A stretch of DNA of 10,449 bases from the UHGV virus genome UHGV-1344453; one strand, given 5' to 3'. This document shows, in pieces, positions 7,289-7,407 of this stretch. The position numbers and the translations under genes are program-made. This DNA is from a virus. The stretch's first letter is position 1, and each line of letters starts with the position of its first letter. Below the pieces are notes generated by a model. It made no database searches and was not told the origin of the DNA. It worked only from the letters and a program-made list of their open reading frames with translations.

Positions 7289-7296
7289 GGCCGTCA

Positions 7297-7364
7297 GAGG
7301 GGGTGGGGGTGGTTTTCAGGACGAAACCGTCCCTGCCGGACACCGACCACCTCCTCAAATTTTT
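7297..7364. promoter_or_regulatory. G-rich arm (GAGGGGGTGGGGGTGG) and C-rich arm (CACCGACCACCTCCTC) forming an imperfect inverted repeat followed by AAATTTTTA; candidate cos/terminase recognition site or attenuator
   Basis: Seen in sequence at 7297-7312 and 7341-7356. It sits between the HNH and terS genes, where HK97-like phages carry cos. Confidence 0.3.
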
Positions 7365-7407
7365 ATGCACGGGAATTTTTTGAAAAATAATCTGACGAAA
7401 AATAAGC

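What the first reader, a model, noticed from the sequence alone, without database searches (positions are those of the whole stretch)
7289..7407. G-rich/C-rich imperfect palindrome between HNH and terS: candidate cos site
In HK97-like cos phages that need an HNH protein for terminase cleavage, cos lies between the HNH gene and terS. The same interval here contains GAGGGGGTGGGGGTGG and its imperfect complement CACCGACCACCTCCTC, flanking a short internal hairpin, with an AAATTTTTA tract after it. It is a candidate cos or terminase recognition site, or alternatively an attenuator.
Basis: partly seen in the sequence, partly recalled or inferred. Interest (0 to 1): 0.5.

Follow-up and report, generated by a model that had tools for sequence, protein, structure and literature searches.

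The report
Phage satellite's DNA packaging cut site
The flagged stretch between the HNH and small-terminase genes is very probably the cos site, the place where a capsid-forming phage satellite (cf-PICI) of E. coli has its replicated DNA cut and loaded into its own small capsids; it is an expected feature of a known kind, now placed to the nucleotide by comparison with relatives.

Summary
The G-rich arm is 7297-7312, the C-rich arm 7341-7356, the small hairpin 7319-7332 and AAATTTTTA 7357-7365.

The window is an E. coli capsid-forming PICI. Its gene order is capsid, protease, portal, connectors, HNH, a 59-aa ORF, terS and terL.

The cos reading is supported. Four independent assemblies of related Klebsiella cf-PICIs break in the homologous interval:
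- A 15,995-bp record starts CTCAAATTTTTA and ends CACCCGCCCC.
- A 15,518-bp viral contig starts at the same base but lacks exactly those 10 nt.
- A Nextera assembly of particle-preparation DNA (vB_KppS-Ant) lacks 69 bp across the site.
- A fourth, chimeric record breaks there too.

The alignment to the window has no gaps. The inferred nicks are 7343|7344 (bottom strand) and 7353|7354 (top strand). They would leave a 10-nt 3' overhang, CGACCACCTC, as in HK97.

Two blocks are as conserved as codon positions 1+2: the G-run 7299-7316 and the core 7354-7389. The core is the likely TerS site.

The hairpin shows no covariation and is not terminator-like, so the attenuator reading is weak.

This is a new member of a known kind (an HK97-type, HNH-associated 3'-cos site). 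The role of the G-run is unknown. No DNA from this element's own particles was examined.

The parts
6679..7119 (+). HNH endonuclease gene. It is the presumed accessory nuclease for cos cleavage.
   Evidence: Pfam HNH PF01844 (E = 1.9e-9) and HNH_5. PHROG 144, HNH endonuclease (E = 8e-45).
7109..7288 (+). Conserved 59-aa basic ORF of unknown function between HNH and cos.
   Evidence: No Pfam hit. PHROG 3173, unknown function (E = 1.6e-29). Annotated as a hypothetical protein in RefSeq relatives.
7297..7316 (+). G-rich arm: G-run GGGGTGGGGG (7300-7309) followed by TTTT (7313-7316). It is a conserved upstream cos element whose role is inferred (cosQ-like or a protein docking site).
   Evidence: Positions 7300-7309 are 97-100% invariant in 194 unique relatives. 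An analogous G-run lies 43-51 nt before the HK97 cut, in SfV, and at the left edge of the 85-bp HK97-type cos carried by a P4-like satellite.
7317..7341 (+). Variable spacer holding the local hairpin GGACG-AAAC-CGTCC (7319-7332).
   Evidence: Over 7317-7340 mean entropy is 0.78 bits, like third codon positions. The hairpin is not conserved in other lineages.
7342..7344 (.). Invariant ACC spanning the inferred bottom-strand nick (7343|7344).
   Evidence: 100% invariant. The 15,518-bp contig ends ...GGCAC at the aligned position.
7344..7353 (+). Inferred 10-nt 3' cohesive end, CGACCACCTC.
   Evidence: The same 10-nt segment (CACCCGCCCC) is the last 10 nt of record NZ_CP069874. It is exactly what is missing between the two ends of IMG/VR contig 3300022664_000095. 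Its length is 10 nt in 185 of the 186 variants that matched the flanking pattern; 9 variants did not match. Its interior varies and its flanks are invariant.
7354..7389 (+). Conserved core to the right of the inferred top-strand nick (7353|7354): CTCAAATTTTTATGCACGGGAATTTTTTGAAAAATAA. This is the left end of the packaged DNA and the probable TerS recognition region (cosB-like).
   Evidence: Two independent relatives' records start exactly at CTCAAATTTTTA. Mean entropy is 0.26 bits. The block is conserved in Serratia, Pasteurella and Mannheimia elements.
7368..7382 (+). Positions +15 to +29 from the inferred cut, CACGGGAATTTTTTG. This is the positional counterpart of the HK97 TerS minimal binding site (CTAACCCGATTTTTT).
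   Evidence: The HK97 site is defined at +15 to +29, with an essential A/T run (paper 10.1101/2023.07.17.549218; HK97 sequence). The match is by analogy only, because the two TerS proteins are not detectably similar.
7408..7764 (+). terS, small terminase of the P27 / Terminase_4 family.
   Evidence: Pfam PF05119 (E = 1.3e-23). PHROG 83.
7748..9409 (+). terL, large terminase of the HK97 type.
   Evidence: Pfam TerL_ATPase and TerL_nuclease. 28% identity to HK97 gp2 (E = 4e-50).

Best explanation
The interval is the cos site of a capsid-forming PICI.

Proposed mechanism:
1. After induction and replication, the satellite's own TerS binds the conserved A/T-rich core just right of the cut (about 7354-7389, with +15 to +29 at 7368-7382).
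2. TerL, with the adjacent HNH protein, makes two nicks 10 nt apart: bottom strand at 7343|7344 and top strand at 7353|7354.
3. This releases ends with the 10-nt 3' overhang CGACCACCTC.
4. Packaging runs rightward, terS first and HNH last, into the satellite's own small capsids. It ends at the next cos, where the motor meets the G-run (7299-7316) about 40-55 bp before the cut.

Shown: the gene context, the conservation, and the fact that assemblies of close relatives end exactly at the aligned positions.

Inferred: that this particular element cuts at the same bonds, the 3' polarity, TerS binding to the core, the need for HNH, and any role for the G-run.
For: Context. The gene set is capsid, protease, portal, connectors, HNH, terS and terL. 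That is the cf-PICI packaging module described in 10.1101/2022.09.08.507074. The element sits next to hpt in a near-identical E. coli genome, downstream of primase, SSB and Icd-like genes. It occurs in 534 of 5426 complete E. coli genomes.

Ends in relatives:
- NZ_CP069874 (K. pneumoniae, 15,995 bp) breaks at ...GGCACCACCCGCCCC | CTCAAATTTTTACGC.
- IMG/VR contig 3300022664_000095 (15,518 bp) is a different element. It starts at the same CTCAAATTTTTACGC and ends ...GGCAC.
- Intact relatives with the same flanks always carry exactly 10 nt in between (31 of 31).
- LR881103 (vB_KppS-Ant) was assembled from a phage-particle DNA preparation grown on K. pneumoniae DSM 30104, using Nextera XT and SPAdes (PMC8006926). 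It lacks 69 bp spanning the same point.
- In PQ569648 the cf-PICI part also breaks in this interval.

Library behaviour. End repair removes 3' overhangs, and Nextera libraries lose terminal sequence (PMC5557969). Both fit the 10-nt and 69-bp gaps.

Cohesive ends are reported for the cf-PICI of the same strain, KpCIDSM30104 (10.1101/2025.02.11.637232).

The window aligns to these relatives without gaps from the G-run to the core.

Selection. The G-run and the core are as conserved as codon positions 1+2. The 10-mer has a variable interior and invariant flanks.

HK97 parallel. TerL is homologous. HK97 also has a G-run 43-51 nt before the cut, a C-rich final 10-mer (CGCCGCCAAA), a T-run TerS site at +15 to +29, and the terS ATG at +50. 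The ungapped match of the 60 nt left of the cut gives p of about 0.012.
Against: No DNA from particles of this exact element was examined. The mapping is transferred from relatives that share about 73-76% nucleotide identity over this region and 84% TerS identity.

The library type of the IMG/VR sample is unknown. NZ_CP069874 is labelled circular.

One other cf-PICI-sized 'plasmid' record (CP018459) is broken elsewhere. That is expected for a circular replicative form, but it shows that not every assembly ends at cos.

Sequence similarity to HK97 cos is not significant in an unanchored local alignment. On the right side of the cut it is only marginal (p = 0.05-0.10).

The TerS proteins of HK97 and of this element are not detectably related. 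The proposed TerS site therefore rests on position and conservation only.
Confidence: 0.87

Rival explanations
1. The G-arm/C-arm hairpin acts in the mRNA as an intrinsic terminator or attenuator. It would lower read-through from the head genes into terS and terL.
For: The RNA of 7289-7372 folds to -37.4 kcal/mol (z = -2.7). The 3' arm is followed, after AAA, by UUUUU. Lower expression of terminase than of capsid genes would be plausible.
Against: The terminator scan does not call the G-arm/C-arm hairpin; its only call in this interval is a chance-level 5-pair stem at 7291-7306. Three A residues separate the stem from the U-run.

RNAalifold on 25 diverse relatives keeps only 7 G-C or G-U pairs. 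It finds no compensatory change, a covariation term of -0.03 and a total of -4.19 kcal/mol.

The inner hairpin is not conserved. The best-conserved bases (CAAATTTTT, GCACGG, ATTTTTT) lie outside any stem. There is no Rfam match.

This reading does not explain why assemblies of relatives end here. A secondary RNA role alongside cos is not excluded.
Confidence: 0.07
2. The conserved A/T-rich block (7354-7404) is a promoter or operator that drives terS-terL separately from the head genes.
For: It is a conserved A/T-rich block 19-54 nt upstream of the terS ATG. It contains AATAAT (7386-7391), which is -10-like.
Against: No sigma-70-like site is found on the + strand here. The best -35 candidates match 2-3 of 6. 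A start after 7391 would leave a leader of about 10 nt.

The genes from capsid to terL are co-oriented and tightly spaced, which is consistent with a single operon.

This reading does not explain the record ends or the conserved G-run.
Confidence: 0.04
3. A chance G/C-rich inverted repeat in a non-functional spacer.
For: The exact repeat is short (9 nt, 89%). G-rich and C-rich runs pair easily.
Against: Both blocks are conserved at the level of codon positions 1+2 across E. coli, Klebsiella-type, Serratia, Pasteurella and Mannheimia elements. A Shigella copy that lost the core also lost the terS start, so it is a decayed element.
Confidence: 0.02

Closest known systems
cos site of coliphage HK97 (3' cos, 10-nt overhang, HNH gp74 with TerS gp1 and TerL gp2)
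   Same: - The site lies between the HNH gene and terS.
- TerL is homologous (28% identity, E = 4e-50).
- A G-run sits 43-51 nt before the cut, against 42-54 nt here.
- The last 10 nt are C-rich (CGCCGCCAAA against CGACCACCTC).
- An A/T-run lies at +15 to +29 where HK97 TerS binds.
- The terS ATG is about 50 nt after the cut, against 54 nt here.
- The overhang length of 10 nt is the same.
   Different: There is no significant unanchored sequence similarity. TerS belongs to a different family: Terminase_4 here, no Pfam hit for gp1, and BLASTP finds nothing. An extra 59-aa ORF lies between HNH and cos. The host element is a satellite with no tail genes in the window or in the element as annotated in a near-identical genome. 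That the HK97 overhang is the last 10 nt of its record is my reading of the record, not checked against the original paper.
cf-PICIs EcCIEDL933 and KpCIDSM30104 (capsid-forming PICIs)
   Same: Same gene order and family. KpCIDSM30104 DNA has cohesive ends. A phage-preparation assembly from the same strain (vB_KppS-Ant) breaks in the homologous interval.
   Different: The texts I could search do not give the position or sequence of the cf-PICI cos site. The window's lineage differs in the 10-mer (CGACCACCTC against CACCCGCCCC) and in some core positions.
Shigella phage SfV (HNH, P27-family TerS, HK97-type TerL)
   Same: TerS is related (35.6% identity). After the HNH stop comes GAGGGGAGGGGCGGG-TCAAATCT. 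About 36 nt later comes CCGGACTGCCCGCCCCATCG-TTTTTTTATACCCGCG, and then terS. GGGGCGGG and CCCGCCCC form a perfect 8-bp inverted repeat.
   Different: The SfV record starts 6-7 nt left of where the analogy would place the overhang. I could not read the paper to learn how its ends were determined.
phage lambda cos (cosQ, cosN, cosB)
   Same: Three-part logic: an upstream element met last by the motor, staggered nicks, and a terminase small-subunit site on the side packaged first.
   Different: Lambda has 12-nt 5' overhangs, a different terminase family and no HNH. The equivalence of the G-run to cosQ is only an inference.
Satellites that carry a helper's cos (P4; cos-type SaPIs such as SaPIbov5; the HK97-cos-bearing P4-like island found here in E. 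coli ZF34)
   Same: A compact cos module on a satellite. The ZF34 island keeps HK97 positions -49 to +36, from the G-run to the T-run. This suggests the G-run is part of the portable HK97-type cos unit.
   Different: Those satellites borrow the helper's terminase. This one encodes its own HNH, TerS and TerL, and a cos sequence unlike HK97's.

Membership tests
HK97-type HNH-associated 3'-cos site | Lies between an HNH endonuclease gene and terS, upstream of an HK97-family terL | tested here: met
   HNH 6679-7119, terS 7408-7764, terL 7748-9409. TerL is 28% identical to HK97 gp2 (E = 4e-50). A 59-aa ORF intervenes between HNH and the site.
HK97-type HNH-associated 3'-cos site | Packaged DNA has unique ends at the site | tested here: inconclusive
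   Met for relatives. Two independent records start at the same base, a third lacks 69 bp across it, and a fourth breaks in the interval. No particle DNA of this element is available, so the result is transferred through an ungapped alignment.
HK97-type HNH-associated 3'-cos site | 10-nt 3' single-stranded cohesive ends | tested here: inconclusive
   Exactly 10 nt are missing from one assembly and present as the terminal 10 nt of another. This fits removal of 3' overhangs by end repair (PMC5557969). The polarity is inferred, because the library types are not known.
HK97-type HNH-associated 3'-cos site | TerS binds a short site with an A/T run 15-29 bp downstream of the cut | not testable with these tools
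   A conserved CACGGGAATTTTTTG sits at +15 to +29. Binding was not tested, and this TerS is unrelated in sequence to HK97 gp1.
HK97-type HNH-associated 3'-cos site | Cleavage requires the HNH protein together with TerL and TerS | not testable with these tools
   Only the gene neighbourhood is seen here. The requirement is known for HK97 and for staphylococcal cos phages, as cited in 10.1101/2022.09.08.507074.
Capsid-forming PICI (cf-PICI) | PICI backbone (int, alpA, primase) plus its own capsid, protease, portal, connectors, HNH, terS and terL, and no tail genes | tested here: met
   Pfam hits for primase, SSB, protease, portal, head completion protein, connector, HNH, TerS and TerL. No tail genes are present in the window. 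The order matches the Proteobacterial cf-PICI order given. int and alpA lie outside the window. The upstream part of the near-identical E. coli locus shows Icd-like and primase genes.
Intrinsic terminator / attenuator | Stable stem-loop followed directly by a U-run, with pairing maintained by compensatory changes | tested here: not met
   The terminator scan does not call the G-arm/C-arm hairpin; its only call here is a 5-pair stem at 7291-7306. AAA lies between the stem and the U-run. Zero compensatory pairs in 25 diverse sequences.

The most novel reading that the evidence does not exclude
The G-run and its imperfect inverted copy at the cohesive end may form a shared, so far undescribed module of HNH-associated HK97-type cos sites. 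It is seen here in cf-PICIs from five genera, in SfV, in HK97, and in a P4-like satellite that carries only HK97 positions -49 to +36.

The G-run would be a second protein-recognition element. It could be a cosQ-like stop signal or the docking site of the HNH protein.

Its lineage-specific sequence, together with the core, would give the satellite its exclusive packaging relative to helper phages.
Probability: 0.3. Interest if true: 0.55.

Novelty: new member of a known kind. Interest (0 to 1): 0.36.

Why it matters
cf-PICIs spread between species by packaging only their own DNA into their own capsids and borrowing tails. The cos site is the cis-acting signal that makes this packaging exclusive.

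A nucleotide-level prediction gives a small portable cassette (about 7297-7390) for three uses: testing packaging specificity, building cf-PICI-based delivery vectors, and recognising cf-PICI ends in virome data. The prediction covers the nicks at 7343|7344 and 7353|7354, the overhang CGACCACCTC, the TerS core and the G-run.

It also explains why deposited 'phage' and 'plasmid' records of these satellites begin and end where they do.

It does not change what is known about how such sites work.

Tried and rejected
- Unanchored local alignment of the interval to the HK97 cos junction scored 15, against 16.1 +/- 2.4 for shuffles. I therefore do not claim sequence homology to HK97 cos, only a shared layout. 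Anchored comparisons are marginal to modest.
- BLASTP and Pfam found no relation between this TerS and HK97 gp1.
Diversity came instead from metagenome and IMG/VR scans.
- The Brucella phage BiPBO1 record starts at the terS ATG, so it says nothing about ends.
- The SfV paper is not held.
- Rfam gave no relevant family.
- The RNA-structure reading was tested and gave no covariation.
- The promoter and terminator scans were at chance level.
- Metagenome contigs L111 and L138 and IMG/VR contig L180 end near the region but not at a shared position. I treated these as ordinary assembly breaks.
- CP018459, another cf-PICI-sized circular record, is broken elsewhere.

Full report
**What the window is**

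The ORFs and Pfam hits give this order:
- D5/primase-helicase, 93-1310
- SSB, 1841-2251
- Major capsid, about 3009-4224 (interrupted by a masked run)
- HK97-type prohead protease, 4260-4835
- Portal, 4837-6051
- Head completion protein, 6048-6386
- gp6-like connector, 6383-6679
- HNH endonuclease, 6679-7119
- A 59-aa ORF, 7109-7288
- P27-family TerS, 7408-7764
- HK97-type TerL, 7748-9409

There are no tail genes. This is the Proteobacterial capsid-forming PICI (cf-PICI) layout: capsid, protease, portal, head connectors, then hnh-terS-terL. It is described in 10.1101/2022.09.08.507074.

A 99.8% identical copy lies in E. coli SB0258h1 next to hpt, downstream of Icd-like and primase genes. The 1.2-kb query around the finding matches 534 of 5426 complete E. 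coli genomes.

**The observation**

- G-rich arm, 7297-7312
- Inner hairpin GGACG-AAAC-CGTCC, 7319-7332
- C-rich arm, 7341-7356
- AAATTTTTA, 7357-7365

The interval 7289-7407 is the gap between the small ORF and terS, not directly between HNH and terS.

The inverted repeat is modest. The best pair is 9 nt at 89%. The single-strand fold is -37.4 kcal/mol, with z = -2.7.

**Where relatives' DNA ends**

This is the main evidence.

1. LR881103, 'phage vB_KppS-Ant', is a 16.5-kb cf-PICI. It was assembled de novo from a phage-particle DNA preparation grown on K. pneumoniae DSM 30104, using Nextera XT and SPAdes (PMC8006926). Its linear record starts 22 nt before terS and ends just after the G-run. 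Compared with intact copies of the same sequence type (L132, L180), it lacks 69 bp across the middle of the intergenic region.

2. IMG/VR contig 3300022664_000095 (15,518 bp) is a different element. It starts CTCAAATTTTTACGCACGG and ends ...CCGCAAGGCAC. In every intact relative with the same flanks, exactly 10 nt lie between these two ends. The count is 31 of 31, mostly CACCCGCCCC. The spacing is 10 nt in 185 of the 186 unique variants that matched the flanking pattern; 9 did not match.

3. NZ_CP069874 is a 15,995-bp 'plasmid' of K. pneumoniae FDAARGOS_1323 and again a different element. Read in the satellite's orientation, it starts at the same CTCAAATTTTTACGC and ends ...GGCACCACCCGCCCC.

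4. In the chimeric record PQ569648, the cf-PICI part runs from terS codon 2 to the last codons of the small ORF.

Two independent records starting at the same base of a roughly 16-kb unit cannot be a coincidence.

One record carries the 10-mer at its 3' end and another lacks it. This is what a 10-nt 3' overhang predicts, because end repair removes 3' overhangs and transposase libraries lose terminal sequence (PMC5557969).

He et al. report cohesive ends for KpCIDSM30104.

**Transfer to the window**

From the G-run to the core, the window aligns with these relatives without gaps. For example, 41 nt separate TTTT from the nick in both. This gives:
- Bottom-strand nick, 7343|7344
- Overhang, 7344-7353 (CGACCACCTC)
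- Top-strand nick, 7353|7354
- Left end of the packaged DNA, starting CTCAAATTTTTATGC

**Conservation**

I compared 194 unique homologous sequences from E. coli, Klebsiella-type, Serratia, Pasteurella and Mannheimia elements.

| Region | Mean entropy (bits) |
|---|---|
| G-run block, 7299-7316 | 0.29 |
| Core, 7354-7389 | 0.26 |
| terS codon positions 1+2 | 0.26 |
| Third codon positions | 0.73-0.90 |
| Spacer, 7317-7340 | 0.78 |
| Remaining intergenic DNA | 1.14-1.17 |

ACC (7342-7344) and CAAATTTTT (7356-7364) are essentially invariant. The interior of the 10-mer varies between lineages. That pattern fits conserved nick contexts around a free cohesive sequence.

A Shigella copy has deleted the core together with the terS start.

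**Comparison with HK97**

TerL is homologous. TerS is not detectably so.

HK97 TerS binds +15 to +29 (CTAACCCGATTTTTT), next to an essential A/T run (10.1101/2023.07.17.549218). The HK97 record shows a G-run at -51 to -43, a C-rich last 10-mer, and the terS ATG at +50.

The window has the same order and nearly the same spacings: G-run at -54 to -42, CACGGGAATTTTTTG at +15 to +29, and the ATG at +55.

Statistically this is weak. The unanchored alignment is not significant. Anchored at the cut, the left side gives p of about 0.012 and the right side p of 0.05-0.10. I therefore claim a shared architecture, not sequence homology.

Two further observations suggest that the G-run belongs to this kind of cos:
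- A P4-like island in E. coli ZF34 carries only HK97 positions -49 to +36, from the G-run to the T-run.
- SfV, with a related TerS and an HNH gene, has the same layout, including a perfect GGGGCGGG / CCCGCCCC inverted repeat.

**Rival readings**

*Attenuator or terminator.* The scan does not call the G-arm/C-arm hairpin; its only call in the interval is a chance-level 5-pair stem at 7291-7306. RNAalifold on 25 diverse sequences keeps only 7 invariant G-C or G-U pairs, with no compensatory change. The inner hairpin is lineage-specific. The best-conserved bases are unpaired. There is no Rfam family.

*Promoter.* No + strand candidate is found.

Neither reading explains the record ends. A minor RNA-level effect alongside cos cannot be excluded.

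**Verdict**

What is added:
- The identity of the element as a cf-PICI.
- The inferred nicks and the 10-nt 3' overhang.
- The split of the 'palindrome' into a conserved G-run element and the cohesive end itself.
- A conserved core that is the likely TerS site.

The papers I could search do not give the cf-PICI cos position. Its kind and location are what the HK97 precedent predicts, so it is a new member of a known kind.

The function of the G-run and the direct proof on this element's own particles remain open.

Noticed in passing
window 9480-9650: Iterons: TGCGGGTT three times in direct order (about 9489-9540), followed by AACCCGC three times in inverted order (about 9625-9650), then a TATATATATA run. 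They lie just after terL and before the host hpt gene. They look like a replication origin or integrase/excisionase arm sites near attR. None of the five cf-PICI-sized relative records whose ends I read breaks after terL.
   Followed up: partly
window 1519-1562 and 3760-3772: Masked runs of N (44 and 13 bases). The second splits the major capsid gene into two apparent ORFs (3009-3788 and 3745-4224).
   Followed up: no
window 7109-7288: A conserved, basic 59-aa ORF (PHROG 3173, unknown function) sits between HNH and cos in all enterobacterial relatives. Its C-terminus (...ECFRNRW) ends 8 nt before the G-rich arm (11 nt before the invariant GGGGTGGGGG). It could be a small cos-binding or terminase accessory protein. 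It contains an imperfect 17-nt direct repeat at 7177-7193 and 7200-7216.
   Followed up: partly
L401 7001-7085 (E. coli ZF34, NZ_CP047461 3981427-3981511): A P4-like or PICI-like island (HTH regulator, Icd-like protein, P4-family primase, SSB) carries an 85-bp copy of the HK97 cos (positions -49 to +36, 94% identical) in an otherwise unrelated intergenic region. It is apparently a satellite that borrows HK97-type helpers. The same is seen in strains ZF31 and CUWW06.
   Followed up: partly
L089 about 2130-2190 (Shigella flexneri SFBU1023): A deletion between two CCCCGCC repeats removes the cos core and the first 9 or so codons of terS. This is a decayed, non-packageable copy.
   Followed up: no
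L003 (LR881103) and L004 (PQ569648): Two deposited 'phage' records are really cf-PICIs. vB_KppS-Ant was described as a filamentous ssDNA prophage but appears to be the cf-PICI of K. pneumoniae DSM 30104. Klebsiella phage P12620-1 (106.5 kb) is a chimera of a roughly 90-kb phage and a cf-PICI joined at terS codon 2. In Ant and in CP018459, a 2.3-3.4-kb gene annotated as tape measure protein follows terL.
   Followed up: partly
L215 / L234 (IMG/VR contig 3300016725_000266, 21,312 bp): One contig carries two related terS genes about 4.4 kb apart. It may be a tandem or nested pair of cf-PICI-like elements, or a mis-assembly.
   Followed up: no
plasmid records NZ_CP038627, NZ_CP123539 (Arsenophonus nasoniae, about 16 kb) and NZ_CP070523 (Morganella, 24.7 kb): cf-PICI-like packaging modules are deposited as small non-mobilisable 'plasmids' in other genera. 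This suggests episomal or packaged satellite DNA is often assembled as a plasmid.
   Followed up: no
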